The position numbers and the translations under genes were made by a program. This document shows positions 26,505 through 55,578 of a stretch of 60,505 bases of DNA, piece by piece. The notes beneath the pieces were generated by a model. The model did not search any database, was not told where the DNA came from, and worked only from the letters and a program-made list of their open reading frames with translations. The stretch is taken from the NCBI GenBank assembly GCA_035457005.1, contig DATICB010000017.1, positions 1 to 60,505 on the forward strand. Direction: 5' to 3'. Each line of letters begins with the position of its first letter. Position 1 is the first letter of the stretch. The DNA is from Patescibacteria group bacterium. Its GTDB lineage: Bacteria > Patescibacteriota > Microgenomatia > Levybacterales > UBA12049.

Positions 26505-26546
26505 GGGAATCTTGCATTTTCTGTCAAGAAAGTAAATACTACATAT

Positions 26547-32993: not shown

Positions 32994-32996
32994 TCT

Positions 32997-33067: not shown

Positions 33068-33071
33068 CCCA

Positions 33072-33144
33072 GGGCCGGTAGCTTAGTTGGTAGAGCGCCT
33101 CCATGGCATGGAGGAGGTCGAGAGTTCAAGTCTCTTCCGGTCCA
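33072..33144 (+). tRNA. tRNA-Ala (anticodon GGC)
   Basis: Acceptor GGGCCGG/CCGGTCC with G3:U70. Anticodon loop ATGGCAT. T-loop TTCAAGT. It lies 4 nt after the previous tRNA. Confidence 0.9.
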
Positions 33145-33184
33145 CAATTTAGCCTCAGAGTTATCAGTCAGTACGCATTGTCAG

Positions 33185-36260: not shown

Positions 36261-36336
36261 TACTGTCAAGGAAGAAAAATACTATTTATATCAACTTTTC
36301 TTATAGACAAACATACTATATATAGTATGTTCTTTT

Positions 36337-39300
36337 TTAGTTGACGATTAACCAATTAAATGTTGTGTTGGTTGTCTGCTGAAGAGGAATACCAACAGTA
36401 AAGGATGTTTTATCAACTTGGCGAATTAAGTATGGTGTTATTGTGCTTTGCCCAACAGGCGTGATGTAAATAAGTGATTTGCTCGTTACTAGTTTGTTGT
36501 CGATTGTTATTTCTGTTTGGTGTGCTTTCACATCTGCGGTGCCTGCCGATCCTGTTGCAACAAGTTCGGTATTGCTCACAGCCAGAGCTGGCTCTGCTAC
36601 TTGCAGATTCAATTTGCCAATCGTTGCCGCGCCAGACGCAATGACATTACCAAGCTGGTCAATCGTAAAGATGCCAGAGCCAGACGCATTTTGAACAGAA
36701 AGATTGGATGTTGCTAATGCTGCACCTGTTGCCGTTGGATTGTTGCCTAATTTTACCGTAAGGTTACGGTCATTGCTGATTGGCGAGATAATATTTGCAG
36801 CCAAGGTTTTACTAAAGACTGCATTGCCATTGACTGTGAGGTTGCCATCAGTGTCGATTGCCAAAAGCCCTCCTTCAAAATTCACGCCTCCTTGTCGAAG
36901 TGGCTGAATATCAAATGTTGCGCCCAAGACGTTGACTCCATTGTCGGCAAGAATTAACTGACTGCCAATTGCGAGCTGTCCAGTAATAGTAGTATCAGAA
37001 AGAGTGGTAGTACCAAGACTCATAAGACCTTGTTCAAACATACCAGTTGTTGCGTCTAAATTCGGGACATATGCCAAGAACCCAGAATATGAGGCTAAAT
37101 TAGTGTAGCCAAGGTATGGATTTAGCAGTCCAGAATTGGTACTGCTACTACCACCAAGTCCTGTAGCAATATTTTCACCAGTTGGTGCTCCACTTGGTGT
37201 AGCAAAGTATATATTGGTCACATTGGTAATATTTTGAGCAGAAAGTGTACTCACCACTGCTTGCAGTCCTGCAATGGTATTAGCCTCAATTCTGTTGGCG
37301 TGGAGGGTCCCGGATACGGTAGCATCGCCATTTACTGCGAGATTTTGCGAGGTAAGAGTGCCAGAAAATGTTGCATTACCAATATTGTCAATTGTAGCCA
37401 CGGCAGATCCACTTGCGCCATTTCTTACTTCTATCCTAGAGTTTCCTAGGCTCAAAGCAATGCTATTATCTTGCCCAAGAGGCGAGACAATGCCGGTGTG
37501 AAGCTGATCAATAGATGCAATAGGCGAGTTAACAGTTCCATTATTGAATTGGCTCAAGCTTCCATTGCTGATTGCTGTCTGGACAACGCCAATAATGTAA
37601 TCGGACAGACTTTGTCCAGCGATAGTGACATTGGCAGTGGCAATAGACAGGGAATTGGTGATAGTCTGTTGTGCTTGCAAGGATCCAACTCTCAAGTTTC
37701 CAATCACTGCTTCAGACAATGCGGCAATTTGATGAATTGGATTTCCGAATATGTCAGAAAGCATGTAATAGTGGGGAATAGTAAAGTCAGCGGAGACTGT
37801 TGCATTTTGATTCATGATAATATCTCCGGTACCGCTGAGGTCCAGATTAGTAAGTTTGCCAGAAAGCATTGCAAGCTGGCTATTTGCAGACGTTGTGGCA
37901 ACATCAACTTTGGTATTTAAATCCTGAACTGCCTTGACAATAAGTGGAGTAATTCTTCCATAATCAACACCCCATGGATCTTGTGGATTCACATCTCCAT
38001 ATCTGTCGTCTGGGTTTGTCGGCACGCTGACTGCGTTGGGAAAGACATTATACAGCCATTGAGCAATAAACCCCGTCTGCAGAGGGCCTGTTGGCTCAGT
38101 TTTGTAATGGAAGTTGACAACAGGAATCTGTAAGAGCTGATCTAGTCCCATATTGGTTGGAGCAATATCTGTCTTAAGACGGATATCAGAGGTATTGGTA
38201 TAGGTGACACCTCCACCGTTTCCCTGAACAGTACCCAAGGATGTGCCGTCTCCATCAAGGTATTGTAAAAAAAAGGCAGTATCACTGGTATTTGCTCCTG
38301 CTTGAATTCTAATCCCATCACCCGAATTAGAAACGGCATCATTATGGACAACAAGCGCAAAGTTACCGCCAGTGATACCACTGGTAACAGTCATCTGCCC
38401 GGTTGCTCCCCAAATAACGTCATAATTGCCATAGGTACGATCATACAAACCCAGTTGTCCAGACGTTCCAGCGGCGTCATTGTACCATTCATACTGATGT
38501 CCTCCCCCTGGAGTTCCATCCATAATAATTATGCCTCCTGCACTGCTATGTCCTACACGAATATTTCCTGAATTAACATCAAGGGTCGCGTTTGGGGTTG
38601 TTGTCCCAATGCCTACATTGCCACCACCTGGGTTAAGAGAAATGTTGCCAGTAGTACCTAATGTTGCATTAGGAAAGGCTTCTATAACTAGTGGACCATT
38701 ATTATTTGCAAATATAGCCCCAAGAGAGGTACCGGCCCTTTTCCATGTCGTTAGAAATACACCGTCATTTACCGTGTCTATATTTAGCGCACTTAGGGAG
38801 TTATTTGCTGCTTGGTTACTCACAATATCAAGTGTTGATGTTGGATTGGCTGTTCCGATTCCAACTCTCCCAAAGGTGTTATTCACATAGAGTGTTGGGT
38901 CTACCTGGGATGGGTCTTGCTCGGTATCAACAGACACCACTGGCTCTGGGTTGGTGAATGAGCGGACATATATGGTATTAGCAGAATTGGTGGTTGCATA
39001 GCCATTGTGGGGAGTACCAGTTGGGTTTGCCAAATCGGTTACTTCTGCTGCGCTGAGTGCTGCATCATAAAAGTGTACTTCATCAATATATCCTCTAAAA
39101 AAGTGGGCATTTGATCCTGCAGATTGTCCAATCTTAAGAGATTGGGAGGAAGAAGAACCTATTGTGGAAGAGCCTCCCGTACAGGTAGAGACTTGCACGC
39201 CGTTTACATAGGCGATTGCAGATGTTCCGGATTTAGTCACGGTGACATGCTGCCACACGTCGGGTGTAAGGATAATGCCCCCATTTGACCATTTATCTGT

Positions 39301-42300
39301 TCCTGCTCCGATTGTGTTACATCGATAGGAAGCTCCATCACTCCAGCCAAAGAAATAGGTATTACCTGTTCCAGTTGATTCTAGCATATACCCACCACTT
39401 GTATTGATATTATGTTTACTAAAAATATCTGCGCTGGTAGGCTGTACTGCTCCTGGCTTGACCCATAAATCAGCTGACATGGCATTACTAAAATTAATAC
39501 TGCTGCTATTGGCAATACTGATACTGTCCCCAACCCCATCAAAATAGACACCATTGTTAAACATGCCATTAGCAATAATTCCGTTGGAAAGTGTCCCTGT
39601 ATTGCCATTACCCGATGTATCACTTTCTGTTGTGCCGGAGGTAATATCCATGCTGTATGCCGCCTGAAGCCCACTAATGGAGCGAACAAATGTATTCGCG
39701 GCAGATGAAACACTGGTGGACAGAGACAAATTGCCATAGTAGATATAGATATTTTTCTTTTCTCCTGGTGGGAGCTGGGGGACTTTTACCCAGAAAATAG
39801 TTGATGACGTATTGCAGGTACCAGGCTCCATCCAGTAATTAAGATTGGTTGTACCATCAGAATCAGTAAAGCGCACGCCAGTACAATCATTTCTCATCTT
39901 GCCAACAGAGATAGGAGCCGTTGTATTGATTGATACTTTCACTTGGTAGTCTGCATTAGCAGAACTAGATGCTGACTGGGTATTATCTACGGTAATGCGA
40001 GCACGATATGATTCACCATAACTTGATGCTATCCAGGAAGTTGGATCATAGAGCCCTGACTTAATATCTCCAGCAACAGTGAGCAGGGCAGAAGTAGAGG
40101 CAACAGATGTTGTCCCAAGCGCTACATTGCCAGTTGTCTGTTGCACATAAAAGCTGGGGAGCATTTGGGTCACAGTATTTTGCTCTTGGCCTAATGATGC
40201 AATAGTTGGCTCTGTTGATACATATGCTCGTGCTTCTTCTGTATTGGCATTACTTGCAATAGTATAGCCATAATTTTGACCCCCATTGGAATACAAATCA
40301 GTAATCTGAGATGAAGATAAGGCGATATTATAGACACGGGGCTCATCTAGGGTGCCGGTAAAGAAACCTGCGCGTGCACCTGCGTTGTAGGGGGGTGCTG
40401 CGCCAATATCCAAGACGCCTGTTGGCGCACTGCCAACAGTGATCGTTGCCGGTGTACCTGTTGAGGCACCATCAACATAGAGCGTCATGGTTGTTCCGGA
40501 AATGGTCATGACAGCGTAGTGCCAATTACCATCAGCATAGGTTGTGGCAGTACTATCAACTATATAGTCTGTTGGGTTATTAAAGTACTCTGCTTCTACT
40601 TTTCCACTTGTTAGGAAGTTAAGACCAAAAAGGGTGCGAGTCCCAATTTGGGTATCTTTTCTAATAAGAGTTTCCTTAGAGCTTGGGTTAGATGATTTCT
40701 TAAACCAAATAGCAACTGATAATGGTTGGGTGATACGCAGGTTGCTACTGTCATTGATTTCTACATAGTCGCTATTGCCATCAAATGTTCGAGCATTACC
40801 AAAAATACCGGTTGCAACAGTTGTACCCGATTCAGAAGCGACGTTATTGCCATTCCCTGAGAAATCATTCATTGGCATGTAGGTTGGCTCATCAAATCTC
40901 CAGGCACCCTGTACTCCAGAAATTTCCCGGACAAACGTACTTGTGGAAGAGGATGCTGCACTTGCGCCCGCGTTGCCATAGTACATATACATCATTTTGT
41001 TGGGACCTGGAATAAGGGGTACCTTTACCCAGAACGTCGTTGCAGTGGTATTGCAGGAATTGGGCTCAATCCAGTAATTAAGGTTAGTCGACCCATCTGA
41101 GTCGGTAAATCGTACATCATTACAACTTGAAAGCACCTTTCCAGAAGAAACAAGACCTGTGGTATCCATAACAACTCGCACCTGGTAATTGATAAGCTGC
41201 TGCCCATAGGTATTGTTGATTGAAATTTGTCTTCTGTAGCTATAGCCATCCACACCCCAATTTGTGGCATCTTTGCCAACACGTAAATCTCCATAGACAT
41301 CAAGCTTGTATTGAGCAGAGGTGGTGCCGATACCAGCAGAGCCATTAATATCCATGGCCTGTCCGGATGCTGCAGGATCGATAAAGTAATTGGTGTTATC
41401 CAAATCCTGGAAAGACCTTGCACGCAAGATACCCGAGTTGGTGAGTTGAAGCTCAGTTGCTCCGGAGGCAGAAGCAGTGAGGATATCTGCTACATTGTTC
41501 TGTTGATTGACTATGAGTGCAGAATTCCCTAAGCCGTCTTTCTCAATATCCAAAGGCCCAAGGGGGGAAGTAGTGCCAATGCCAACATTGCCATTACTGA
41601 AGTAATGAGGGCCAGATCCTGTGACATGCAATCCGGTTGCGCTTATGGTAAATGCGGAAGCATCTCCTGTTGCGAAATAATTATTATTAATGCCAAATTT
41701 AATTTGTCCTCCCGATGGGGCGTTCAAAAAGGTATAGGTTCCGTCACCGAGTAAAGAGTAATTATTACACGTGAGATTATTTGTCCCAAAAGAGATACCA
41801 CTATATCCGCCCCCACAATTTGGAGATCCAATATAGGTATATGAGCTAGATTCTCCAAGGACTTGTAACTGTTCTTGAGGACTGTTTGTTCCAATGCCAA
41901 TATTCCCGGAACTTGCTATATATAGTGCAGGATTTCCTTCACCGCTATTGCCACCAACAGAATTATAAAACCCAAGGGTTGCATTGTTGAGTAAGTCAAC
42001 TTTTGTATTTGCCGCTGTGAAGGAAAGGTTGCCGGAAGTGGTTGCTGTCCCTGCATAGGTTCCAGAACCAAAAATCTGGAATTTTGCAGAGCTTGTGGCT
42101 AAACCGCCAACTGCCAAATCATTCGTAAGATTGGCAGGAGCTAAAACTCCAAGGCTGCTCAACTGCCAGAACCCCGCGATACCGCCACTGCTTGGAGTAA
42201 CAATTTGTCTCACATAGAGCGTATCCCATTCTTGTCCTCCTGCTGTCGGATCAGATCCCAAATTGTACGTATCGTTTGTTTTTGGAATAAGACTTGATGC

Positions 42301-45300: not shown

Positions 45301-48300
45301 ATTATCACCAAGAGTCAGCCCTTGATTATTCCTTGCAGCAATAAGGTTGGTTGCTGCAGTACCGCTGGTAAACGTCAGTGTTCCTGCTGTTGTTGCATTA
45401 CCAGAATTGGCGAAAATTTGAAATTTAGCGCTACCGGTTGCTGTGCCACCAATTGCGACATCGTCGGTTATATTGAGCGGTGCCAAAACACCTAAATTTC
45501 TCTGCCATGTTTGTGTAATTGGCTGTCCATTCTGGTAAATATTATTCGCATAAATATTATTCCACTGAAGAGCTGCCGAGCCTAAGTCATAGGTATTGGT
45601 TGTGTAGGGGAGAATATTGGACGAAACATTGCTGTTAAAACTAATATTGCCTGTAGTGTTGCCGCCCAATGTAAGCGTTTCATTTCTCACTGTCTGAATC
45701 GTTCCGTCTGCTGCAAAATACATGCCAGTGCCATTCAATCCTGATGATACCGATGCAGTTGGTGTGCCATTAGCGATATTGAGTACTGCAAATTTAGCAG
45801 ATGTTGTACTGGTTGCTCCTACTAATACATCGTTTGTTATATTTGTTGGAGATAATGCGCCATTGTTTAACTGCCAGAATCCAAGATACTGTGAAGAAGC
45901 CGAGCCAAAGAGATTGGTAATATAGGCACTACCATAGTAATTGGCTGGAGATCCTAAATTAATACTTGTTGATTGGGGAATAAGACTTCCTGAGAAAACG
46001 CCAACTGGGTTAATGGTATTGGCGCTCGTTGCTCCCAAAACTGCATTGTTGTTGGCAGTGAAAACACCTGTTGCTGTGAGTGCGTTATTCACTGTTGTCG
46101 TGCCGCTTGTTCCGCCTATGTTTACATTTGTTGTCAAGGCATTATTAGCGAGATTGAGTGTTGTTGCTGCACTGCCAAAGTTAATTGTTGTTGCTGTGGT
46201 ATTGAGTAAATTGACACTTGTCTGATTGGTTGCCAGTGTTGCTGCATTTAAATTGATAGTTGATCCTGTGCCACCGTTTAAGGGTTGGAGCGTTATATTT
46301 CCGGTCGTATTTCCACCAATGGTGAGTCCTTGATTTCTCACTGTCTGAATTGTTCCGTCTGCTGCAAAATACATGCCAGTTCCGCTTAATCCTGAAGAAA
46401 CAGATGCTGTTGGATTTCCAGAGCCAGTCATGTTGAGGACAGCAAATTTAGCAGTTGTTGTTGCGGTGCCGCCAGCTAAGATGTCGTCAGTAATATTAGC
46501 AGGGGAGAGTGTGCCAAGATTTCTTTGCCAGAATCCTGCAGTATTGCCGGATGTAATAATGTTTTTGACATACAAATTATTCCACTCCAAACTTGCAGAG
46601 CCTAAATTATAAGTGTCAGCATCTGCGGGAATAAGATCGGAGTTGATAAATCCACTGACCGTGAGCGATCCTGTCCCATTGTTTGGTTTTAAGATAATAC
46701 CACCTGTCGTGTCTCCACCAAGAGTAAGTGGTTGGTTGCTCGTTGTTTGGATTTGAGACCCTGTTCCGGTAAACGTCAGTGTTCCGGCAGTTGTTGCATT
46801 GCCAGTATTCCCAAAGACTTGGAATTTAGCACTATTGGTAGACGTTCCGCCAATTGCAAAATCATTTGTTATATTTGTTGGGCTTAAGACGCCGCTGTTT
46901 AATTGCCAGAATCCATCATACTGTGCATTCGGACCTAAAAGAAGACCATTTGCATAGATATTTCTCCAGCGAAGTGGTGTTGTTCCATCTCCCAAATCAA
47001 AAGTATTATCAGTTGTTGGGACAAGACTGCTACCAAATCTTCCTGTTGTGACAATAGTATCAGCCGTTGCATTACCCAAATTAACATCTCCATTAAGATT
47101 TGTTGTATTATTTGCTGTGAAAATACCTGTTGCTGTGAGTGCGCTATTCACTGTTGTTGTGCCACCAGTCACGCCAAATCCTAATGTTGTCGCATTGGCG
47201 GTAAATGCATTAAATGTTGATGCAGTTGTTTGAAGAGCAGAACCATTCACAGTAACTGTTCCATTACCACTGTTTGGACTTAAAGTAATACCACCTGTCG
47301 TGTCTCCACCAAGAGTAAGTGGTTGGTTACTCGTTGTTTGGATTTGAGACCCTGTTCCGGTAAAGGTTAAATTGCCAGCAGTTGTTGCGTTACCAGAATT
47401 GGCGAAGACCTGGAATTTCGCAGTTGCTGTTGCTGTCCCGCCAATTGCTAAATCGTCTGCAATATTCGCAGGGGAGACAACGCCGAGATTCCTCTGCCAG
47501 AATCCAACCGTGGTTCCTGTTGAGATAACATTTTTTACATAGATGTTGTTCCACTCCAAACTTGCAGAGCCAAGATCATACGTATCTGTTGTTCGTGGGC
47601 CAACATTGCCTGCCACTTCGAGAGCAAAATCGCTCGTTGTTGTTGTGCCAATGCCAACATTTCCTGTTGAATCAACATAGAGTCCTGTTGTTCCTTTCGG
47701 TGATAATTGAACTGATCCTGTTGTTGCAGAGCCTATGGTGAGCGGGCGATTGTTGGTGGTTGCAATGACGCCATTACTATTCAGTGTTATATTCCCAGAA
47801 ATGGATGCAGTTGGTGTGCCAGACCCTGGAGCATTATTTAAGAACGAAAAATTAGCAGAAGAACTACTCGTACCGCCAAACAAAACATCTAATGTTGTAT
47901 TAACAGGATAGAGAATTCCATTCCCACTATCCAATGTCCAATAATTTGTTGCACCGGCAGCGGTTGAACAACTTGTCCAGCTTGGCGCACCAGATCCTGC
48001 AGAGACAAGACATTGATTTGTCGAGCCTACCGCCGTGAATGCATAATTGGTGCCGTTGGAATAGGCAACACTTCCGGCTAACCCAATGGTGTTGGTGTTC
48101 GTACCGCCATTGGCAATTGGCAAGATGCCAGTAACTTCTGAAGCTAGGTTGACACTGCTTGATGATAAAACGCCTCCTGTTGCGTGGACAACGCCTGTCC
48201 CAAGGCCACCAATAGTGACTGTTCCTGCTCCATTGAGTGGGTTCAATGTGATGTTTCCTGTTGTAGTTCCGCCAATTGTCAGTCCTTGATTTTTCGTTGT

Positions 48301-51300
48301 CTGAATAAGACTGCCTGTACCATCAAACGTCAGTGTTCCTGCTGTTGTCGCATTCCCAGTATTTCCAAACACCTGGAATTTGGCAGTACTGGTAGACGTC
48401 CCGCCAATTGCTAAATCATCGGTAATATTACTTGGAGAAATGATTCCGGAATTTCTCTGCCAGAATCCTGAAATAGTACCTCCGGAAATAATGTTGTTAA
48501 CATATAAATTATTCCACTGCAAACTTGCAGAACCCAAATCATACGTATTGGTTACTTGGGGAATGAGGTTAGAGTTAATATGGCCATTAACAGTAATATA
48601 TCCGTTGCCATTAAGTGGACTCAAGGTAATGTTGCCAGTACTGCTGCCACCGATCGTGAGGCCTTGGTTATTGGTTGTTTGAATCTGACCGACACTATTC
48701 AGCGTTATATTTCCAGAAATGGATGCTGTTGGTGTCCCAGATCCTGGCGCATTGTTAAGAAACGAAAAATTAGCAGACGAGCTACTTGTACCGCCAAACA
48801 AAACATCCAATGTGGTATTCACGGGGTAGAGACTCCCGTTGGCAAGTGTCCAGTAATTAGTGACGCCTGCTGCTGTAGAACAACTACTCCATGTTGGTGA
48901 TCCTGCCGCGCCTGAAAGAAGACATTGTCCTGCTGTTCCTACCGCAGTGAATGCATAGTTGGTGCCGTTGGAATACGCAACACTTCCAGCAGAGCCGATG
49001 CTTCCAGTATTGGTTCCGCCATTAGCAATTGGTAAAATACCAGTGATCTCGCTGGTTAGGCTAACATTAGAGGAGGAAAGCAGACCTCCTGTTGAGTGAA
49101 CAACACCTGTACCAAGTCCAGCAATCGTGACAGTCCCTGTGCCGTTAAGTGGTTTTAAGACAATATTTCCAGTCGTGTCGCCACCAATAGTCAGACCCTG
49201 ATTGTTGGTTGTCTGAATAAGTCCTGCGCTGTTGAGTGTAATATTTCCGGAAATAGATGCAGTTGGTGTACCTGCCGCATTATTCAAGAAAGCAAATTTA
49301 GCAGATGAAGATGAGTCACCGCCAAATAAGACATCGAGTGTTGTATTGATTGGGTAGAGGGTGCCATTCGCAAGTGTCCAAAAATTAGTTCCCGAAGCGC
49401 CGCTGCCACAACTGCCCCAAGTAGGTGTTCCACCGCCTGCAGACGTAAGACACTGCCCGGCAGAGCCTGCTGCTGTTTGGAAGAAAAGTCCAGTCCCATC
49501 TGCATAGAAGATTCCGCCTGCGGTGTTGTAGTTGGATGCAGTAATTGTGCCAGTATTACCCAGCGTGAATTTGCTTACGCCGGCTGCAGATGCAGTGAAT
49601 AATGCTCCTGCGCCGTCTTGATTAATGGTGACTGCAGGAATACCAGAATTAGTAGCCAGGACAGCAAAGGTGTCATCAACCTCAACAGAGCCTGTCGCTG
49701 ATGAAATATTATTATTTTGTGTTGAATTGATGAGCGGCTTTTGCAAGTCAATAAATCCTTGGCCGTCGGGCGCGATTGTTATGTTGCCATTGGTCCCTGC
49801 GTTTGTATTTAAGACAAGCGTATCGCCGCTCAAGGTGAATGCACCACCAACTGTTTGGAATGTGCTCGCTGCGCCAATAGACAAATTGCCAGCGGAGTTA
49901 AGCGCCAAAACAACATTGCTTGTTCCTGCGCCGGATTGGGTAATCGGGGGCAAGCCTTGAAGCGTTTCCGCATTAGTCGCGTAGGCAACGGTTGCCAGCT
50001 GCTGTCTTGGTGTTAGCTCTGGAGTCTGAGCAACGGTAATGCCTAAGAAAAGATTGGCATTATTAGCAAAAAGAGACTGTTGAATTGCACTTCCTTGTCC
50101 CAATAACACTGAAAAAACACCATTGGCATCAGGAGTAACATTATCGACCTCTTGCCACAAAAGAGCTGAACCGGTTGCTGTAGCGTTGGTGTAAATACCA
50201 AAACGTAAATTGGTCGAGGTTGTTATTGGATTGCTGCTACTATCTGTCAGCCTGCCTTGGAAGGAAAGAATCCTGTTTGGTTGTGCTGCTGCTAGAATAT
50301 GCTGACCATTTTGTGGGCGTGATGCAAAATTGTTGTAAAACCCAAATCCAATGACTGTCATGACAATCATGAGGATTGCCCAGTTAAAATAATGCGCAAT
50401 TGCATAACTATGATATCTTTTGTACCAGTTGGGTCGTGTATATCGTGCATGATGAATAAGTGTTTCAAGCCATGGCAACTGATTCAGTATTCTTTGTGCT
50501 GGAGCGAAAACTGACTTTGAAATATTTTTCACAGGCATAAATTGCGCAAGCCTCTTCTGCTCGTCTGTCAGCTTGTTGGTGAAAAGAGGCTTACCCCTGA
50601 GTGTCCAGATTGCTTTATGACCATGAACAACTAAGTGGGTGAGTGGAGTTATGAAAACACTGTCAAATACAAAATTGATTCCTTTTGATATCTTTTGAGC
50701 AAGTCTAAAAGGAGGAAAAGGAGAATAAGTGTGAGATTTTGTGGGTAGCGCAGTGGGTTTTGCTACACCTTCTCCATCGTCGGTAGTTAGGACATGGTCT
50801 TTTTGTTGTCTCTCTGGCGATTCAAAAGTGTTAGTGCTAGGAATATTTGTAACATCAATTGGATTGACGGGAAGACCTTTTTGATTTTGCAAAAGATTTT
50901 GACTATTTGCCCAGGCAACGTACTTACGGAGTGAGGAGAGCTTGCGGTTAATTGATGAGTTGGAAAAAGCATGTTCAGCCACAAGTGCATCTCTGTAACT
51001 TGCAAGCAGGGCATTGTCCAAGCTCTCTAAAACAGTTGCTTCTGGATTCTGTTGTTGCACCGAAGACTGTGCCCATTTAAAAAATTGTTTCAAGTCAATG
51101 ATATAGTTTTTGATAGTTAGATTGCTTGCGTTATAGACATAAAGAAAATCTTTGAATTGTTTGAGCTGGTATGGATCTTCTATATGCTGGCTAGATGTCA
51201 CCTGATCAAGTGGACTCGCGCTTACGTAGCCTTGTAATTTAAGGAAATGAAAGAATTTTCTCAAGGAAGAGACATGCCTATCAAGCGATCTTTCTGAGAG

Positions 51301-51495
51301 TTGTTGATTTTTTTCTTGTCTAAAAAGGGCGATGTGCTCTGAGGAAATACTTTTAGGATCAAACGATGTCTGGTATTTCTCTTCAAACCACACGATGAAG
51401 TGTTTCACGTCCAGGCTGTAGTTTTTCACAGTCACTTTCGATGGAGCTGGTTTGAGCGAAAATAAATAATTTTTAAATTTGATTAAATATTCCAT
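36337..51495 (-). CDS. giant (5,052 aa) membrane-anchored, tail-fibre-like surface protein
   Basis: Uninterrupted 15,159-nt ORF. The domain order was read from the translation and is given in the sub-features below. Confidence 0.9.
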   Translation of the reverse strand: MEYLIKFKNYLFSLKPAPSKVTVKNYSLDVKHFIVWFEEKYQTSFDPKSISSEHIALFRQEKNQQLSERSLDRHVSSLRKFFHFLKLQGYVSASPLDQVTSSQHIEDPYQLKQFKDFLYVYNASNLTIKNYIIDLKQFFKWAQSSVQQQNPEATVLESLDNALLASYRDALVAEHAFSNSSINRKLSSLRKYVAWANSQNLLQNQKGLPVNPIDVTNIPSTNTFESPERQQKDHVLTTDDGEGVAKPTALPTKSHTYSPFPPFRLAQKISKGINFVFDSVFITPLTHLVVHGHKAIWTLRGKPLFTNKLTDEQKRLAQFMPVKNISKSVFAPAQRILNQLPWLETLIHHARYTRPNWYKRYHSYAIAHYFNWAILMIVMTVIGFGFYNNFASRPQNGQHILAAAQPNRILSFQGRLTDSSSNPITTSTNLRFGIYTNATATGSALLWQEVDNVTPDANGVFSVLLGQGSAIQQSLFANNANLFLGITVAQTPELTPRQQLATVAYATNAETLQGLPPITQSGAGTSNVVLALNSAGNLSIGAASTFQTVGGAFTLSGDTLVLNTNAGTNGNITIAPDGQGFIDLQKPLINSTQNNNISSATGSVEVDDTFAVLATNSGIPAVTINQDGAGALFTASAAGVSKFTLGNTGTITASNYNTAGGIFYADGTGLFFQTAAGSAGQCLTSAGGGTPTWGSCGSGASGTNFWTLANGTLYPINTTLDVLFGGDSSSSAKFAFLNNAAGTPTASISGNITLNSAGLIQTTNNQGLTIGGDTTGNIVLKPLNGTGTVTIAGLGTGVVHSTGGLLSSSNVSLTSEITGILPIANGGTNTGSIGSAGSVAYSNGTNYAFTAVGTAGQCLLSGAAGSPTWSSCSTAAGVTNYWTLANGSLYPVNTTLDVLFGGTSSSSANFSFLNNAPGSGTPTASISGNITLNSVGQIQTTNNQGLTIGGSSTGNITLSPLNGNGYITVNGHINSNLIPQVTNTYDLGSASLQWNNLYVNNIISGGTISGFWQRNSGIISPSNITDDLAIGGTSTSTAKFQVFGNTGNATTAGTLTFDGTGSLIQTTKNQGLTIGGTTTGNITLNPLNGAGTVTIGGLGTGVVHATGGVLSSSSVNLASEVTGILPIANGGTNTNTIGLAGSVAYSNGTNYAFTAVGSTNQCLVSAGSGAPSWTSCSTAAGATNYWTLDSGNGILYPVNTTLDVLFGGTSSSSANFSFLNNAPGSGTPTASISGNITLNSNGVIATTNNRPLTIGSATTGSVQLSPKGTTGLYVDSTGNVGIGTTTTSDFALEVAGNVGPRTTDTYDLGSASLEWNNIYVKNVISTGTTVGFWQRNLGVVSPANIADDLAIGGTATATAKFQVFANSGNATTAGNLTFTGTGSQIQTTSNQPLTLGGDTTGGITLSPNSGNGTVTVNGSALQTTASTFNAFTANATTLGFGVTGGTTTVNSALTATGIFTANNTTNLNGDVNLGNATADTIVTTGRFGSSLVPTTDNTFDLGDGTTPLRWRNIYANGLLLGPNAQYDGFWQLNSGVLSPTNITNDFAIGGTSTNSAKFQVFGNTGNATTAGTLTFTGTGSQIQTTSNQPLTLGGDTTGGIILKPNNGTGSLTVSGFINSDLIPADADTYNLGSASLEWNNLYVKNIITSGNTAGFWQRNLGTLSPANITDDILAGGTATTTAKFAVLNMTGSGNPTASVSSGLSGTGMYFAADGTIQTVRNQGLTIGGNTTGNITLQPLNGGTGSTINLNAATLATNQTSVNLLNTTATTINFGSAATTLNLANNALTTNVNIGGTSGTTTVNNALTATGVFTANNNAVLGATSANTINPVGVFSGSLIPQSTSINLGSPANYYGSAYITNLFGSASSQYLGFWQLNNGALSPTNITNDVLVGATSTTSAKFAVLNIANGTPTASVSSGLNGTGMYFAADGTIQTVRNETLTLGGNTTGNISFNSNVSSNILPYTTNTYDLGSAALQWNNIYANNIYQNGQPITQTWQRNLGVLAPLNITDDVAIGGTATGSAKFQIFANSGNATTAGTLTFTSGTAATNLIAARNNQGLTLGDNQTGNIILNGNNVGIGTTNPGSFRLQLAGSVGPDANNLYDLGSNALAWRNVYANGLILSATAQYDGFWQRNSGIISPSNIADDLAIGGTATSSAKFQVFGNTGNATTAGTLTFDGTGSLIQTTRNQGLTIGGTTTGNITLSPLNGISGSSVTFAGASSFTTGTGLTTTGGNFTVNGTTVTLGNGSSSTIQTTSNADLTLLSSGTGNIILGQNSGLGNITVQPNAGGNSALVVNKQGPNGDIFTASASGVTKFTIQNDGTLIAKKYTTADGILYLSDTNGTVAETAQGAAHTFLRGNGAGAPTFNAIDLTADVGSSILPIANGGTNATTLGSAGSVAYSNGTRYAFTSVGSGGQCLISNASSAPSWSDCSSAASNWWTMTNGALYPINETFDFFIGGSATTSAKFAVLNMTGSGTPVASVSSGLNGNATYLTATGSLQTARNAGLTIGGDTTGNITLKPQNGNGIVTINGTTLDSSGTSFTAFPTATSLNIGNSSGTTTVNNALTTTGNIADNGGTFSTNQTTFNLLNSTATTINFGAGATTALNIGASNTPINLKGDVTLGTSSTNTITTTGSLATDLVPTGNGSINLGSATHYYGTVYANTFISPVSGGVSGFWQLTNNVLSPVNAWNDLAVGGNATGSATPWQVFATTLGVNTAGTATSSAGLSFRGTTTQVALLNGSVLNVKTSVGGDSGLGTVLSIANNGDITQTGNFTTSGNVAVNGGNITTTAGTASLFDSNATNINIGSGATGGIGIGNAAGTNTIRGNVVLGSGTGNTIGFTGRVSTDIIPSITNTDDLGSVALSWKNLYLTGAVTASNVYLPATGGVGGYWTLASNVLYPTNNWNDLAIGGTGTASAKFQVFANTGNATTTGTLTFNGDTANVIATRNNQGLTIGDSQTGNITLTALNGGTGSTINLNAATIATNQTSVNLLNTTATTINFGSAATTLNLANNALTTNVNIGGTSGTTTVNNALTVTGTTTLNGKVNLGDATSDDITATGFFASSLIPKTNDTYNLGSDPTAGGQEWDTLYVRQIVTPSSGGIAGFWQLSSLGVLAPANLTNDLAVGGLATSSAKFQIFGSGTYAGTATTSGNLSFTAANTKVDLLNNATLGFYNSVGGNSGEGNPALYIASSGNIGIGTNSPQEQLQVLGESSSYTYIGSPNCGGGYSGISFGTNNLTCNNYSLLGDGTYTFLNAPSGGQIKFGINNNYFATGDASAFTISATGLHVTGSGPHYFSNGNVGIGTTSPLGPLDIEKDGLGNSALIVNQQNNVADILTASASGATELQLTNSGILRARSFQDLDNTNYFIDPAASGQAMDINGSAGIGTTSAQYKLDVYGDLRVGKDATNWGVDGYSYRRQISINNTYGQQLINYQVRVVMDTTGLVSSGKVLSSCNDVRFTDSDGSTNLNYWIEPNSCNTTATTFWVKVPLIPGPNKMMYMYYGNAGASAASSSTSTFVREISGVQGAWRFDEPTYMPMNDFSGNGNNVASESGTTVATGIFGNARTFDGNSDYVEINDSSNLRITQPLSVAIWFKKSSNPSSKETLIRKDTQIGTRTLFGLNFLTSGKVEAEYFNNPTDYIVDSTATTYADGNWHYAVMTISGTTMTLYVDGASTGTPATITVGSAPTGVLDIGAAPPYNAGARAGFFTGTLDEPRVYNIALSSSQITDLYSNGGQNYGYTIASNANTEEARAYVSTEPTIASLGQEQNTVTQMLPSFYVQQTTGNVALGTTSVASTSALLTVAGDIKSGLYDPTSWIASSYGESYRARITVDNTQSASSSANADYQVKVSINTTAPISVGKMRNDCTGVRFTDSDGTTNLNYWMEPGTCNTSSTIFWVKVPQLPPGEKKNIYIYYGNLSLSTSVSSAANTFVRSISGLQAAYSMDITSGTTESDTSGNGNTGTLSNGIIANGMFNNGVYFDGVGDSISIANSSSINFSNAMSADLWVKPGAVQPTSADIFSKHNINTSGGYMLESTGTGNTYFFGWSDGASYRCNTIGAGTDKWSNGGIILTPDVWQHVTVTKSGTSAIAYVNGVQVSTCTGGSSTIGSSSSQSLKIGQSAGSNAHFFRGYIDEVHFYDAALSAAEVTDLANPTGTPHNGYATTNSANTIYVRSFTNPEPVVSVDTEQDPSQVDPTLYVNNTFGRVGIGTANPTSTLDIVSNQAANNSLSALNIDTVNDGVFLTTWKRAGTSLGAIFANNNGPLVIEAFPNATLGTTGNISLNPGGGNVGIGTTTPNATLDVNSGNIRVGHSSAGGIIIMDGTPGGGHQYEWYNDAAGTSGQLGLYDRTYGNYDVIWGATGQMTVTSGITGGNFALVVHNDAVSNSGDGIRIQAGANTSDTAFFLQYLDGDGTSLGTVQGNGGGVTYTNTSDIRLKTDIAPTNMGLDQLLQIPVVNFHYKTEPTGPLQTGFIAQWLYNVFPNAVSVPTNPDDRYGDVNPQDPWGVDYGRITPLIVKAVQDLNTKVDVATTSANSQLAMLSGKLTNLDLSGTGDIIMNQNATVSADFTIPHYYMLSDIFGNPIHQIAALSEAVIGNLRVGSLQAQQTITNSLSIATANVTIAGQSLSDYIIGVVQTAISNGSLSQFNNGTVNSPIASIDQLHTGIVSPLGQDNSIALSLGNSRIEVRNGASGSAVATIDNIGNATFSGTLTSQNLAVNGDATVSGTLHANRIEANTIAGLQAVVSTLSAQNITNVTNIYFATPSGAPTGENIATGLGGSSSTNSGLLNPYLGYTNLASYSGFLAYVPNLDATTGMFEQGLMSLGTTTLSDTTITGQLAIGSQLILADNGVNVLGATFDIQPLRQGGVNFEGGLLAIDTDGNLTVNGNAVFSKTLAANIISPISNDRNLTVKLGNNPTATGAALATSNLSVQNASGSGIFTIDQLGNVIASGAATIGKLNLQVAEPALAVSNTELVATGSAGTADVKAHQTEITIDNKLVTSKSLIYITPVGQSTITPYLIRQVDKTSFTVGIPLQQTTNTTFNWLIVN
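37905..38195 (-). other. peptidase S74-type intramolecular chaperone (auto-cleaving) domain, internal
   Basis: TNTSDIRLKTDIAPTNMGLDQLLQIPVVNFHYK..GFIAQWLYNVFPNAV..VDYGRITPLIVKAVQDLNTKV. The conserved Ser is residue 4436 (codon 38188-38190). Confidence 0.7.
39030..41255 (-). other. two consecutive DUF2341-like + LamG (concanavalin-like) cassettes
   Basis: Cassette 1: YRRQISINN..VRFTDSDGSTNLNYWIEP..FWVKVP..YMYYGN, followed by FDGNSDYVEI..GNWHYAVMT..LYVDG..LDEPRVYN. The second copy is YRARITVDN..YIYYGN followed by a LamG region. Confidence 0.65.
41500..50200 (-). repeat. at least 14 tandem tail-fibre-like modules
   Basis: The recurring unit is DLGSxxLxWxNxY .. GFWQ(R/L)N..SPxNIxDDLAIGGT..AKFQVFxNxGNATTAGTLTF. 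LPIANGGTN and vGIGTtxP..LxV motifs are interspersed. Confidence 0.8.
50329..50406 (-). other. single clear transmembrane helix (aa 364-389)
   Basis: YAIAHYFNWAILMIVMTVIGFGFYNN. Confidence 0.75.
50887..51495 (-). other. two tandem tyrosine-recombinase-type N-terminal SAM-like/core-binding domains (aa ~3-95 and ~108-203)
   Basis: Domain 1: FKNYLFSL..VTVKNYSLDVKHFIVWF..SERSLDRHVSSLRKFFHFLKLQGY. Domain 2: LKQFKDFLYV..LTIKNYIIDLKQFFKWA..SINRKLSSLRKYVAWA. No catalytic R-H-R-Y domain follows. Confidence 0.6.
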
Positions 51496-52093: not shown

Positions 52094-52978
52094 ATGAAAA
52101 AAATATTTCCTCTTGTACTCTTATGCATGCTTGCATTTTTTGTAAAAGTCCCTGTTGCGTTTGGTGCTGTTGCAACGCAGAGTGGAACAACCAATATTAC
52201 CGTAACGATCTCTGGTAACGTGTTGTCGCTTTCTGGCTACATTGCACCATTTGCCTCGATTGTCCTCACGGTTAATGGAAATGTGATTACTTCAACCACG
52301 GCAGATGCGGCGGGCAATTTCTCTTTTAGCAATGTAGCCGTGCCCAAAGCAACGAGTACGGTATGTTTGGATGCTGTTGATTTTAAAAAGCTTGGTACAT
52401 CCAAAGCATGTATTAGTGTGATACCTATTGATGGGGTCATTACGAAAACAGGAATTTTTCTTCCGCCAACACTTGGTGTTCAGCGAACCGATGTCTTTGT
52501 TGGGGACAGCGCTTTAGCATTTGGCTATGGCATGCCTGGAGCAACAATTACTGTTCACGTCAATAGCAGCAAAGGATGCACTGTTACAGCAGAATCTACA
52601 GGCTACTACACATGCAATATTACCATTCAAAAAGTGGGATCGTACGAATTGTATGCTGATGCAGTCTTGAATAACAAGCCAACAGAGCAGCAGCTTTACA
52701 AAATTCTCATAAAAGGTATTACGGTCTCTAAGCCTTCAATTACGCCTGGACCAACTGTATCACCGTTGCCTGAGCTTAATCTTTTTGCAATTCCATGGTG
52801 GGTGTGGTTATTGCTTGTCCTGATAAGCATTATCCTTATTATTATTCTTCTTCGAAAATTCAAACCTGAGGCTCTGCCAACTATTGGTGTTCCGGCATTT
52901 AAAATTAATCATGCATTTGATTTCTTATTTAAGTCTCGAAAATTGCACCATTGGTGGATGAAAGGTGTAGGGTATTAG
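52094..52978 (+). CDS. secreted Ig-like-domain protein with a C-terminal membrane anchor
   Basis: Signal peptide MKKIFPLVLLCMLAFFVKVPVAFG. Two beta-sandwich-like repeats (TADAAGNFSFSNV and TAESTGYYTCNITI). TM helix WWVWLLLVLISIILIIILL. Confidence 0.7.
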   Translation: MKKIFPLVLLCMLAFFVKVPVAFGAVATQSGTTNITVTISGNVLSLSGYIAPFASIVLTVNGNVITSTTADAAGNFSFSNVAVPKATSTVCLDAVDFKKLGTSKACISVIPIDGVITKTGIFLPPTLGVQRTDVFVGDSALAFGYGMPGATITVHVNSSKGCTVTAESTGYYTCNITIQKVGSYELYADAVLNNKPTEQQLYKILIKGITVSKPSITPGPTVSPLPELNLFAIPWWVWLLLVLISIILIIILLRKFKPEALPTIGVPAFKINHAFDFLFKSRKLHHWWMKGVGY

Positions 52979-53667: not shown

Positions 53668-53715
53668 GCCTTAGAGGCATACTACCTAAAAGAATCATAG
53701 AGCGCAACACGCAGT

Positions 53716-54732: not shown

Positions 54733-54755
54733 TGGTATATTGGGTTATTCATCTC

Positions 54756-55526: not shown

Positions 55527-55578
55527 GAAATTACTTTTTGTTACAAGATTGATTCGTAGTATTCATTATGCATCATGG

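What the first reader, a model, noticed from the sequence alone, without database searches (positions are those of the whole stretch)
36337..51495. 15.2-kb single ORF encoding a membrane-anchored, phage-tail-fibre-like giant surface protein with a chimeric domain order
One uninterrupted minus-strand ORF takes up 25% of the window. Reading the translation gives the following order: two recombinase-type SAM-like domains (aa 3-203); a ~160-aa linker; one TM helix (aa 364-389); at least 14 tandem modules; two DUF2341+LamG cassettes; an S74 intramolecular-chaperone domain beginning at Ser4436; and a further ~520 aa. Each tandem module carries the signature GFWQ(R/L)N..SPxNIxDDLAIGGT..AKFQVFxNxGNATTAGTLTF. 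The modules are interspersed with LPIANGGTN and vGIGTtxP..LxV motifs, which are typical of phage tail fibres. I do not recognise this combination as a described system, and the individual parts normally belong to different contexts (recombinases, tail fibres and tail spikes, lectin-like adhesins). By inference, it is a cell-anchored fibre used for contact with a host or partner cell by an episymbiotic small-genome bacterium.
Basis: partly seen in the sequence, partly recalled or inferred. Interest (0 to 1): 0.85.

Follow-up and report, generated by a model that had tools for sequence, protein, structure and literature searches.

The report
Giant membrane-anchored CPR surface fibre
A real 5,052-residue gene in a tiny "candidate phyla radiation" bacterium (Levybacteria type) encodes a membrane-anchored, phage-tail-fibre-like surface protein whose inner end carries two DNA-recombinase-type binding domains; it belongs to a large family that databases mislabel as "integrase".

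Summary
Window 36337-51495 (-) is one stop-free ORF of 5,052 aa. Pfam confirms two Phage_int_SAM domains, two DUF2341+Laminin_G_3 cassettes and Peptidase_S74 starting at Ser4436. There is one TM helix (aa 364-391) and 14 copies of a ~90-aa module.

It is not a one-off chimera. It is an expanded member of an orthologous family found mainly in Levybacteria (216 confirmed stretches in GTDB genomes; 732 50%-identity clusters). Complete members run from about 1,250 to 6,048 aa.

All members share a fixed frame: two cytoplasmic core-binding (CB) domains with no recombinase catalytic domain, a TM helix, a beta-sandwich base, and a conserved C-terminal ~450-490 aa. In the window protein that C-terminus ends in a lectin-like knob resembling phage tailspike and pyocin fibre tips. 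The middle is swappable (S74, Peptidase_G2, LamG, LVIVD or propeller repeats).

The gene sits in conserved chromosomal synteny next to a Pam-pilus-like operon and a 10-TM/TPR protein, with no phage genes nearby.

Best reading: a Sec-exported, probably trimeric surface fibre/adhesin. Its cytoplasmic tail is a DNA-binding-type module of unknown role. Function is inferred, not shown. NCBI's "site-specific integrase" name for this family is wrong.

The parts
36337..51495 (-). Whole ORF, 5,052 aa, 518.6 kDa
51190..51495 (-). CB1: recombinase-type core-binding (SAM-like) domain, aa 1-102, cytoplasmic
   Evidence: Pfam PF02899. NCBIfam XerC/XerD hits cover only the models' N-terminal ~95 positions. 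AF2 pLDDT >90. Foldseek matches the lambda Int core-binding domain (2oxo, 1z19) at prob 0.99-1.0, rmsd 2.7-2.8 A.
50887..51180 (-). CB2: second core-binding domain, aa 106-203
   Evidence: Second Pfam stretch. NCBIfam XerA hit at aa 113-202. CB1 and CB2 are 29% identical, E 4e-9. The most invariant family motifs, TIKNY and NRKLSSLR, lie here.
50728..50886 (-). Variable linker, aa 204-256; residues 221-253 are predicted disordered
   Evidence: pLDDT <50 for 221-253. Length varies between homologues.
50407..50727 (-). Basic juxtamembrane helical region, aa 257-363 (pI 10.7), with conserved YSxFPPxRLxQK and RYTRPxWYKxYHSY motifs
50323..50406 (-). Single TM helix / signal anchor, aa 364-391, N-in/C-out
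   Evidence: Hydropathy. AF2 helix 365-391. The positive charges lie on the N-terminal side.
49396..50283 (-). Conserved ectodomain base, aa 405-700. It includes a beta-sandwich at aa ~410-500, the best-conserved part of the family (40-87% identity).
41887..49386 (-). Shaft, aa 704-3203. It holds 14 copies of a ~90-aa module, interspersed with four Cys-pair GQCL..C elements (three of them preceded by LPIANGGTN) and other repeats.
40267..41238 (-). DUF2341 + LamG cassette 1, aa ~3420-3743
39016..40008 (-). DUF2341 + LamG cassette 2, aa ~3830-4160
   Evidence: Laminin_G_3 best stretch aa 3986-4152. (PDB 4qvs S-layer domain protein, E 6.5e-8)..
37816..38190 (-). S74-type intramolecular chaperone / autoprocessing domain, aa 4436-4560. 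The predicted Ser4436-Lys4441 dyad lies in SDIRLK.
   Evidence: Dyad spacing is as in MYRF S578/K583 and the endosialidases (PMC3742443).
36340..37815 (-). Family-conserved C-terminal domain, aa 4561-5052. The last ~75 aa (36340-36573) form a confident beta-sandwich knob.
   Evidence: Conserved at the extreme C-terminus of every complete family member examined. AF2 pLDDT ~88 for the last 70 aa. Foldseek matches 7eea (cyanophage Pam1 tailspike RBD, prob 1.0, rmsd 2.1-2.3 A), R2 pyocin fibre 6ct8/6cl6 and H-type lectin 2ccv.
34025..36094 (-). Downstream conserved neighbour: a ~10-TM membrane protein with C-terminal TPR (689 aa)
   Evidence: Found downstream of the fibre gene in 34 of the 84 related loci.
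52094..56217 (.). Upstream conserved envelope cluster. orf212 (5 TM), orf256 (Pam-pilin-like C-terminal domain) and orf338 (signal + C-terminal TM) lie on the - strand, interrupted by an adenylate kinase gene. An Ig-like CarboxypepD_reg protein (signal + C-terminal TM) is divergent on the + strand.
   Evidence: NF058581 CPR_Pam_pilin_C, E 6e-10, 39.4 bits, below the cutoff of 55. Synteny is seen in 61-67 of the 84 related loci.

Best explanation
The ORF encodes a type II (N-in/C-out) single-pass membrane protein of a Levybacteria-type CPR bacterium. It is an expanded member of a lineage-wide orthologous family.

Shown here:
- A fixed frame: two cytoplasmic recombinase-type core-binding (CB) domains without a catalytic domain, a basic juxtamembrane helical region, one TM helix, a conserved beta-sandwich base outside the membrane, a hypervariable middle, and a conserved C-terminal ~450-490 aa that in the window protein ends in a lectin-like knob.
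- In this copy the middle holds 14 ~90-aa modules, disulfide-type Cys-pair elements, two DUF2341-LamG cassettes and an S74 intramolecular chaperone with an intact Ser-Lys dyad.

Inferred:
- The TM helix acts as a signal anchor and the ~4,660-aa ectodomain is exported by Sec.
- The chains register and trimerise from the C-terminus. S74- and G2-type chaperones fold only as trimers.
- The result is a fibre on the order of 100-250 nm. This figure is my own scaling from phage long tail fibres.
- The fibre presents LamG and knob lectin-like domains that bind glycans on a partner cell or surface, acting alongside the adjacent Pam-type pilus genes.
- S74 may self-cleave at Ser4436, giving a membrane-anchored trimer and a 64-kDa C-terminal trimer. 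Whether that fragment stays attached is unknown.
- The cytoplasmic CB pair most likely binds DNA or a cytoplasmic partner, linking the fibre to the cell interior. Its role is unknown.
For: ORF and domains.

Topology:
- One TM helix, with the positive charges on its N-terminal side.
- The cytoplasmic part has pI 9.7 and the ectodomain pI 4.5. All 16 Cys are outside, in 8 pairs.
- A DsbA-like gene is present in the window.

CB fold: pLDDT >90, and Foldseek matches the lambda Int core-binding domain at prob 0.99-1.0. The CB1-2 region has a family median pI of 9.4.

Family and frame:
- 77 N-terminal homologues.
- 216 confirmed stretches in GTDB genomes, mostly titled Levybacteria.
- 732 clusters at E<=1e-30, with lengths up to 6,048 aa.
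- Complete ORFs of 1,266-3,710 aa, and several that run off the fetched flank at >3,700 aa.
- The N- and C-terminal frames are conserved while the middle varies.

Trimer-dependent chaperones at the same position: S74 in the window, L010 and L072; Peptidase_G2 in L037, L064 and L068. The mechanism of the S74/ICA domain comes from PMC3742443.

Tip: the last ~75 aa resemble the Pam1 tailspike RBD, the R2 pyocin fibre foot and an H-type lectin.

Chromosomal, not phage:
- Synteny is conserved as LeuRS / orf212 / Pam-pilin-like orf256 / orf338 / fibre gene / 10-TM-TPR / M23-LysM / Rho.
- The family-specific parts are absent from IMG/VR contigs.
- A preprint notes 'a tail fibre-like protein' that consistently co-localises with pam operons in CPR (10.64898/2026.03.03.709456).
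Against: - There is no evidence of expression, trimerisation, cleavage or binding.
- The monomer AF2 model of the C-terminal 637 aa is poor (pLDDT 44) outside the knob.
- The 14 modules have no significant hit in Pfam, PHROGs, PDB or cultured phages. The best is E 0.21 to a cyanophage fibre motif. A fibre fold for the shaft is therefore inferred from composition, motifs and the flanking domains.
- A conserved tip with a variable shaft is the opposite of the usual phage receptor-binding pattern.
- If S74 cleaves, the knob would be severed from the anchor.
- DNA binding by the CB pair is untested.
- Levybacteria have no known host.
Confidence: 0.6

Rival explanations
1. Envelope coat rather than adhesin. 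On this reading the protein is a structural surface layer, spacer, or phage decoy/shield of the CPR cell. Its variable middle would be driven by phage or predator pressure rather than by host recognition.
For: - The most conserved parts are the membrane-proximal base and the C-terminus, while the middle is swapped freely.
- The closest relative differs by a ~900-aa module indel.
- LamG cassette 2 matches an 'S-layer domain-containing protein' structure (4qvs).
- Homologue P0115 is named 'S-layer family protein' by NCBI.
Against: - The lectin-like knob and the LamG cassettes are typical ligand-binding parts.
- The gene is adjacent to Pam-pilus-like genes, a system implicated in host contact in another CPR bacterium.
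- A single-TM anchor with a long flexible fibre is an unusual design for a lattice.
Confidence: 0.2
2. Membrane-tethered DNA-binding transducer with ToxR-like topology. On this reading the main function is signalling or DNA handling. Fibre engagement outside would change what the cytoplasmic CB pair does on DNA: regulation, tethering the chromosome at the contact site, or capturing incoming DNA, as proposed for SPEARE proteins.
For: - CB domains are DNA-binding modules in every characterised context, and the family keeps their signature residues and basic charge.
- The arrangement of a cytoplasmic nucleic-acid domain, one TM helix and a giant LamG-bearing ectodomain parallels the SPEARE proteins of Nanohaloarchaeota (PMC6642349).
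Against: - There is no test of DNA binding.
- CB domains are less conserved (32-64%) than the ectodomain base (40-87%).
- S74 lies on the outside, so a MYRF-like release of the DNA-binding part cannot occur through it.
- No recombinase catalytic partner gene is present in the window.
Confidence: 0.15
3. Prophage or tailocin tail-fibre gene, or a recent phage-derived insertion, that functions in a virion-like particle.
For: - The S74 IMC matches annotated phage tail fibres at 31-39% identity over ~100 aa.
- The knob resembles tailspike and pyocin tips.
- There are weak PHROG tail-fibre hits.
Against: - No phage genes flank it. The neighbours are housekeeping and envelope genes.
- It occupies the same chromosomal position in dozens of genomes.
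- It has an N-terminal cytoplasmic domain and a TM anchor.
- The family-specific N-terminus, module and C-terminus have no relatives in IMG/VR.
Confidence: 0.03
4. Assembly or annotation artefact: an integrase fragment fused in silico to a fibre gene, or collapsed repeats.
For: - Most database homologues are fragments at contig ends, named 'site-specific integrase, partial'.
- Genes rich in repeats often break assemblies.
Against: - The same CB-CB-TM-ectodomain continuity occurs in independent assemblies, including two records titled as complete chromosomes: OY970292.1 (where the ORF is split after 648 aa) and OZ246394.1 (one 1,433-aa ORF).
- Family members reach 6,048 aa, and a 5,818+936-aa pair sits at the same locus in L004.
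- Internal DNA repeats are at most 87% identical.
Confidence: 0.02

Closest known systems
Phage tail fibres and tailspikes with a C-terminal intramolecular chaperone (Peptidase_S74: K1F endosialidase, T5 L-shaped fibre; Peptidase_G2: phi29 gp12)
   Same: - S74 domain with the Ser-x4-Lys dyad.
- Family members use either an S74- or a G2-type chaperone.
- YDLGS..W.N.Y and LPIANGGT-type motifs.
- A beta-sandwich knob like the Pam1 tailspike and R2 pyocin fibre tips.
   Different: - It is a cellular chromosomal gene in conserved synteny.
- It has an N-terminal cytoplasmic domain and a TM anchor.
- The chaperone is internal, followed by ~490 conserved residues, and is optional in the family.
- At 5,052 aa it is far larger than the phage fibre proteins it matches; the solved cyanophage fibre hit is 1,079 aa.
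SPEARE proteins of Nanohaloarchaeota (Hamm et al. 2019, PMC6642349)
   Same: Both are giant (3,300-8,500 aa) single-TM proteins of an ultra-small episymbiont. Both pair a cytoplasmic DNA-related domain with a variable ectodomain carrying laminin-G and adhesion domains.
   Different: - The SPEARE cytoplasmic domain is a type III restriction-enzyme-like module and is the most conserved part.
- Here it is a non-catalytic CB pair and is less conserved than the ecto-base.
- The orientation is mostly opposite, since the SPEARE TM lies near the C-terminus.
- No sequence relationship was tested.
MYRF-type membrane-bound transcription factors (PMC3742443)
   Same: Both are type II membrane proteins that combine an N-terminal DNA-binding-type domain with an internal S74/ICA domain. 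In MYRF, cleavage yields two trimers.
   Different: [quoted passage not shown] Here S74 lies ~4,050 residues beyond the TM helix, on the outside. The DNA-binding folds are also unrelated (Ndt80 versus CB).
Tyrosine recombinases (XerC/XerD/phage integrases)
   Same: There are two bona fide core-binding (SAM-like) domains by sequence and predicted fold.
   Different: There is no catalytic domain. The NCBIfam Xer models match only their first ~95 of ~295 positions, scoring 76 bits against a cutoff of 335. The NCBI name 'site-specific integrase' for this family is a misannotation.
'Tail fibre-like protein' co-localised with the pam (Pam pilus) operon in CPR (Troman et al. 2026, bioRxiv 10.64898/2026.03.03.709456)
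   Same: The fibre gene lies beside a gene with a Pam-pilin-like C-terminal domain and beside signal+C-terminal-TM proteins that resemble PamC/D/R in layout. The class Microgenomatia is among the Pam-positive groups.
   Different: The preprint gives one sentence and no architecture. Whether its protein (from a Saccharimonadia-centred analysis) is homologous to this family was not testable. The Pam-pilin match here is below NCBIfam's cutoff.
ToxR/CadC-type one-component transmembrane regulators (from my own knowledge)
   Same: Both have the topology of a cytoplasmic N-terminal DNA-binding domain, a single TM helix and an extracytoplasmic domain.
   Different: ToxR uses an OmpR-type winged helix and a small periplasmic sensor, not CB domains and a 4,660-aa fibre.

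Membership tests
Tyrosine recombinase (Xer / phage integrase) | N-terminal core-binding (SAM-like) domain | tested here: met
   PF02899 in two stretches, 69.6 bits. Foldseek matches the lambda Int CB domain at prob 0.99-1.0.
Tyrosine recombinase (Xer / phage integrase) | C-terminal catalytic domain (PF00589, R-K-H-R-H/W-Y active site) | tested here: not met
   No PF00589 hit anywhere in the protein. The XerC/XerD models are matched only at positions ~4-97 of ~295, scoring 76 bits against a cutoff of 335.
S74 intramolecular-chaperone tail fibre/tailspike | Peptidase_S74 domain above the Pfam threshold | tested here: met
   47.8 bits against 22, aa 4436-4489. It also matches phage tail-fibre IMC regions.
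S74 intramolecular-chaperone tail fibre/tailspike | Catalytic Ser-Lys dyad (S-x4-K) | tested here: met
   S4436-D-I-R-L-K4441. The spacing is that of MYRF S578/K583. Cleavage itself was not testable.
S74 intramolecular-chaperone tail fibre/tailspike | Chaperone forms the extreme C-terminus and is discarded | tested here: not met
   About 490 conserved residues follow the IMC.
S74 intramolecular-chaperone tail fibre/tailspike | Encoded in a phage or tailocin structural module | tested here: not met
   The flanks are housekeeping and envelope genes in conserved synteny. The family is absent from IMG/VR.
Trimeric beta-helical / fibrous fold of the shaft | Modules fold as an intertwined trimer | not testable with these tools
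The module profile has no significant PDB hit (best E 0.21).
DUF2341 + LamG cassette proteins (MshQ/TafC-like) | DUF2341 followed by a concanavalin-like LamG domain | tested here: met
   DUF2341 in two stretches (135 bits) and Laminin_G_3 in two stretches (149 bits).
TafC family fimbrial protein (NF052521) | Full-length equivalog match above the cutoff | tested here: not met
   111.5 bits against a cutoff of 410, and only model positions 195-361 are matched.
MYRF-like self-releasing membrane transcription factor | [quoted passage not shown] | tested here: not met
   The order is CB-CB, TM (aa 364-391), then S74 at aa 4436.
SPEARE proteins | Giant single-TM protein with a cytoplasmic restriction-endonuclease domain and a LamG-bearing ectodomain | tested here: inconclusive
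   Size, the single TM helix and LamG are met. The cytoplasmic domain is CB, not a restriction enzyme. Sequence homology to SPEARE was not tested.
Pam pilus system neighbourhood | Adjacent Pam pilin and chaperone genes | tested here: inconclusive
   orf256 matches NF058581 CPR_Pam_pilin_C over the full model at E 6e-10, but at 39.4 bits it is below the cutoff of 55. orf338 and the CarboxypepD_reg protein have a signal peptide plus a C-terminal TM helix, as described for PamC/D/R. There is no PDB sequence match.

The most novel reading that the evidence does not exclude
This family may be a previously unrecognised class of 'inside-out coupled' surface fibres. In it, a trimeric, phage-fibre-like host-contact organelle would be hard-wired through one TM helix to a pair of DNA-binding core-binding domains. 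Contact or tension at the fibre would then position or regulate DNA at the contact site: the chromosome, or DNA being acquired from the partner. That would make it a bacterial counterpart of the archaeal SPEARE idea and a new use of recombinase CB domains without recombination.
Probability: 0.15. Interest if true: 0.85.

Novelty: new variant of a known kind. Interest (0 to 1): 0.62.

Why it matters
How CPR/Patescibacteria cells recognise and hold on to partners is largely unknown, and most lineages, Levybacteria included, are uncultured.

This family is a lineage-wide, syntenic gene and here the largest gene in the window. It has a fixed frame and a freely exchangeable middle, next to genes resembling the newly described Pam pilus. 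That makes it a concrete candidate for the specificity determinant of cell contact.

The cytoplasmic pair of recombinase core-binding domains is unexpected. It offers a testable link between surface contact and DNA.

There is also a practical point. Hundreds of database entries called 'site-specific integrase, partial' are N-terminal fragments of these surface proteins, which inflates counts of mobile-element genes in CPR genomes. Their repeat-rich middles are also a recurrent cause of contig breaks.

Tried and rejected
- Repeat collapse or chimeric assembly. Rejected: internal DNA repeats are at most 87% identical, and the architecture recurs in many independent assemblies.
- Prophage context. 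Rejected: no phage genes in the flanks, and no relatives of the N-terminus, module or C-terminus in IMG/VR.
- Active recombinase. Rejected: no catalytic domain in the protein or elsewhere in the window.
- Silent cassettes or paralogues for antigenic variation, and DGR targeting. No similarity to the ORF elsewhere in the window, and no reverse transcriptase among the ORFs scanned.
- Assigning a fold to the 14 modules. Pfam, NCBIfam, PHROGs, PDB phmmer and a PDB profile search gave nothing significant.
- AF2 of the C-terminal 637 aa. It failed except for the last ~70 aa, so the Foldseek tailspike hits over ~280-300 columns (rmsd 11-16 A) were disregarded. Only the low-rmsd knob matches were used.
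- The 10-TM part of the TPR neighbour. It could not be assigned to a glycosyltransferase or O-antigen-ligase family, so the idea that it glycosylates the Ser/Thr-rich fibre stays speculative.
- A second TM helix at aa 272-290 (hydropathy 1.44). Judged an amphipathic part of a long cytoplasmic helix.
- Literature searches for a description of this architecture. They found none. The only mention is one sentence on a 'tail fibre-like protein' near pam operons.
- My first strict SDxRxK regex undercounted S74 in the family. An HMM raised the count to 11 of 80 loci.
Full report
**1. The observation**

The minus-strand ORF at 36337..51495 is real. It is 5,052 codons long from an ATG, with no internal stop, and covers 25% of the window.

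- Phage_int_SAM_1 in two stretches (best aa 6-89).
- DUF2341 twice and Laminin_G_3 twice, between aa ~3420 and 4160.
- Peptidase_S74 at aa 4436-4489.

NCBIfam's XerC/XerD/XerA models match only through their N-terminal ~95 positions and far below cutoff. There is no recombinase catalytic domain.

Hydropathy gives one strong TM segment at aa ~364-391.

An HMM built from the motif-bearing segments finds 14 full copies of a ~90-aa module between aa 704 and 3203. They are interspersed with other repeated elements rather than strictly tandem:
- An LPIANGGTN...GQCL..C element. The LPIANGGTN motif occurs three times and the Cys pair four times.
- 'GIGT' turns, seven times.

DNA-level repeats inside the ORF are at most 87% identical, so repeat collapse is unlikely.

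**2. Where it comes from**

The window is an ordinary chromosome segment of a Patescibacteria (CPR) bacterium. It carries 23S and 5S rRNA, three tRNA-Ala genes, LeuRS, Rho, adenylate kinase, RadA-like, S1, peptidyl-tRNA hydrolase, an ATP-dependent DNA ligase and a DsbA-like protein.

The nearest relatives of the ORF and of its neighbours are in MAGs titled Candidatus Levybacteria/Levyibacteriota, within the Microgenomates group. Many other record titles, such as 'uncultured Gammaproteobacteria', are evidently placeholder labels.

**3. It is a family, not a chimera**

The N-terminal 517 aa retrieved 77 proteins. Nearly all are contig-end fragments that NCBI names 'site-specific integrase, partial'.

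A scan of one genome per GTDB species confirmed 216 related stretches. A profile search of 1.84 billion cluster representatives found 732 at E<=1e-30. The top 150 all match most or all of the N-terminal profile and have lengths of 415 to 6,048 aa; the short ones are fragments.

In the 80 fetched loci, complete ORFs are 1,266-3,710 aa, and several run off the 10-kb flank at >3,700 aa. A long contig carries a 5,818-aa plus 936-aa pair at the same locus.

Segment-wise BLAST shows a fixed frame:
- CB1-CB2: 32-64% identical to the window.
- Linker and TM: 24-57%.
- A post-TM beta-sandwich base: 40-87%, the best-conserved part.
- A further ~180 aa of base.
- At the extreme C-terminus of every complete member, a ~450-490-aa domain ending ...FNW(L/I)IVN: 29-65%.

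The middle is exchangeable:
- An S74-type chaperone in 11 of 80 loci.
- Peptidase_G2 in others.
- LVIVD repeats.
- A repeat array that looks like a beta-propeller by eye (not scanned).
- DUF2341/LamG-like matches in only a few members.

The closest relative, L005, is colinear with the window protein but has ~900 extra residues of modules.

**4. Context**

Synteny is conserved across dozens of genomes. The order is:
- LeuRS
- orf212 (5 TM)
- orf256
- orf338
- a divergent Ig-like CarboxypepD_reg protein (present in some genomes)
- the fibre gene
- a ~10-TM protein with C-terminal TPR
- LysM-M23 peptidase
- Rho

orf256 matches NCBIfam NF058581, 'CPR_Pam_pilin_C', over the whole model. The E-value is 6e-10 and the score of 39.4 bits is below the cutoff of 55. 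orf338 and the Ig-like protein have a signal peptide plus a C-terminal TM helix. That is the layout described for the PamC/D chaperones and PamR in the Pam pilus preprint (10.64898/2026.03.03.709456).

That preprint reports Pam pilins only in CPR, chiefly in Saccharimonadia and Microgenomatia. It remarks in one sentence that 'a tail fibre-like protein' consistently co-localises with the pam operon. It does not describe the protein.

No phage genes, reverse transcriptase, recombinase catalytic domain, paralogue or silent cassette were found in the window. The family-specific N-terminus, module and C-terminus have no relatives in IMG/VR viral contigs.

**5. Structure-level evidence**

AF2 on the N-terminal 700 aa, with 37 sequences, gave a mean pLDDT of 74:
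- Two helical bundles at pLDDT >90 (aa 1-102 and 111-198).
- A disordered linker (aa 221-253).
- A long helix (aa 261-300).
- The TM helix (aa 365-391).
- A beta-sandwich (aa ~410-500).

Foldseek aligns the helical bundles to the lambda integrase core-binding domain (2oxo, 1z19; prob 0.99-1.0, rmsd 2.7-2.8 A over ~95 residues).

The cytoplasmic part is basic (pI 9.7; juxtamembrane region 10.7) and the ectodomain is acidic (pI 4.5). All 16 cysteines are in the ectodomain, in eight close pairs. This fits an N-in/C-out topology with extracellular disulfides.

AF2 on the C-terminal 637 aa, with 12 sequences, was poor (pLDDT 44) except for the last ~70 residues (~88). That is the expected outcome for a monomer prediction of an obligate trimer. 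The confident knob aligns with several structures:
- The C-terminal part of the cyanophage Pam1 tailspike receptor-binding domain (7eea; prob 1.0, rmsd 2.1-2.3 A, 20-22% identity).
- The R1/R2 pyocin fibre C-terminus (6ct8, 6cl6, 6cl5).
- The H-type lectin of Helix pomatia (2ccv).

Outside S74 the shaft has almost no detectable relatives among phage or solved proteins:
- A 57-aa LPIANGGTN stretch in one environmental phage.
- The same ~80-aa element at 63% identity in Kapabacteria/Chitinophagales proteins.
- A non-significant match of the YDLGS..W.N.Y motif to a cyanophage fibre (8i4m, E 0.21).

**6. How it most likely works**

Shown: the domain order, the topology indicators, the conserved frame, the intact S4436/K4441 dyad, and the chromosomal synteny.

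Established for the families involved: S74/ICA domains fold and cleave only as trimers, chaperone the triple-beta-helix N-terminal to them, and when internal yield two trimers (PMC3742443). From my own knowledge, Peptidase_G2 chaperones of phi29-type appendages behave similarly.

Inferred:
- The TM helix is a signal anchor and Sec exports the ectodomain.
- The C-terminal domain, with S74 here, registers three chains, which zip toward the membrane into a long fibre.
- The LamG cassettes and the knob bind glycans on another cell or surface.
- The fibre works alongside the neighbouring Pam-type pilus.

If S74 cleaves, a 64-kDa C-terminal fragment is separated from the anchored shaft. Whether it stays attached is open.

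The role of the cytoplasmic CB pair is the main unknown. DNA binding is the default expectation for this fold and charge, but it is untested.

**7. Comparison with known systems**

- It works like a phage tail fibre grafted onto a membrane anchor. It fails membership as a phage fibre on gene context, on the position of the chaperone, and on having an anchor.
- It is not a tyrosine recombinase, because it has no catalytic domain.
- It is not MYRF-like in mechanism, because S74 is on the wrong side of the membrane.
- The closest conceptual parallel is the SPEARE proteins of Nanohaloarchaeota (PMC6642349). These are giant single-TM proteins with a cytoplasmic DNA-acting domain and a variable LamG-bearing ectodomain. 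The cytoplasmic domains differ, and homology was not tested.

I found no paper describing the CB-CB/TM/fibre architecture.

**8. Verdict**

The finding is real, and its anatomy was described accurately. Its interpretation as a cell-anchored fibre is well supported at the level of architecture and context. The interpretation as a host-contact device is plausible but unproven.

It is a new variant of a known kind: giant adhesin-like surface proteins built from phage-fibre parts. The unexpected part, conserved across the family, is a cytoplasmic tail of DNA-binding type.

Interest is 0.62. It would rise to ~0.85 if the fibre-to-DNA coupling proved real, which I put at a probability of ~0.15.

Noticed in passing
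window 16015-19322 (+): The 23S rRNA match spans 3,308 nt against a 2,925-position model, implying ~380 nt of insertion(s). No Rfam intron family was reported there. No 16S gene lies upstream: a tRNA-Ala(TGC) sits at 15566-15643, directly after a thioredoxin-reductase-like ORF (14401-15327). The 16S therefore seems unlinked from the 23S-5S pair.
   Followed up: no
window 15566-15643, 32996-33071, 33072-33145: The window holds three tRNA-Ala genes covering anticodons TGC, CGC and GGC. The last two abut each other between the LysM-M23 gene and the TPR gene.
   Followed up: no
window 52094-56217: There is a Pam-pilus-like envelope cluster next to the fibre gene. orf256 (54756-55526, -) matches CPR_Pam_pilin_C below cutoff. 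orf338 (53716-54732, -) and the Ig-like protein (52094-52978, +) have a signal peptide plus a C-terminal TM helix. An adenylate kinase gene (52975-53667) is wedged inside the cluster in this genome.
   Followed up: partly
window 34025-36094 (-): A 689-aa protein with ~10 TM helices and a C-terminal TPR domain lies immediately downstream of the fibre gene in 34 related loci. Its membrane part matches no Pfam or NCBIfam family. A role in modifying or assembling the Ser/Thr-rich fibre is only a guess.
   Followed up: partly
window ~47920-48160 (aa ~1112-1190 of the ORF); P0134, P0135: An ~80-aa LPIANGGTN...PxW element is 63% identical to part of 633-aa proteins from Kapabacteria/Chitinophagales-type genomes, which carry precomputed Pfam PF26696. 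It is also ~53% identical to a hypothetical protein of an environmental phage (MW202475). It looks like a widely exchanged fibre element.
   Followed up: partly
L004 1-12811; L001 10001-14627; L002 10001-15822: In these contigs the orthologous gene is split into two adjacent or overlapping ORFs: 5,818+936 aa, 677+868 aa and 415+1,544 aa. This looks like frameshift errors or genuine pseudogenisation. The 5,818+936 pair suggests members approaching ~6,750 aa.
   Followed up: no
L031 and L063 (both from MAG CAYWEP01): One MAG carries two loci of the family: one complete at 1,539 aa and one truncated by the contig end. Some genomes may therefore have paralogues. None is present elsewhere in this window.
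   Followed up: no
window 36300-36336 (- strand, just after the stop codon): An AT-rich inverted repeat (GAACATACTATA/TATAGTATGTTT) lies directly after the TAA stop. A TTGACA-18-TACAGT promoter-like site lies before the TPR gene. Together they suggest the giant gene is its own transcription unit. Upstream, a TATAAT box lies only ~18 nt before the ATG, with no obvious Shine-Dalgarno sequence.
   Followed up: no
window 157-1920 (+) and 24114-26942 (+): The window also encodes an ATP-dependent (archaeal/eukaryotic-type) DNA ligase, and a MASE1-PAS-HisKA sensor kinase with an adjacent receiver-only response regulator.
   Followed up: no
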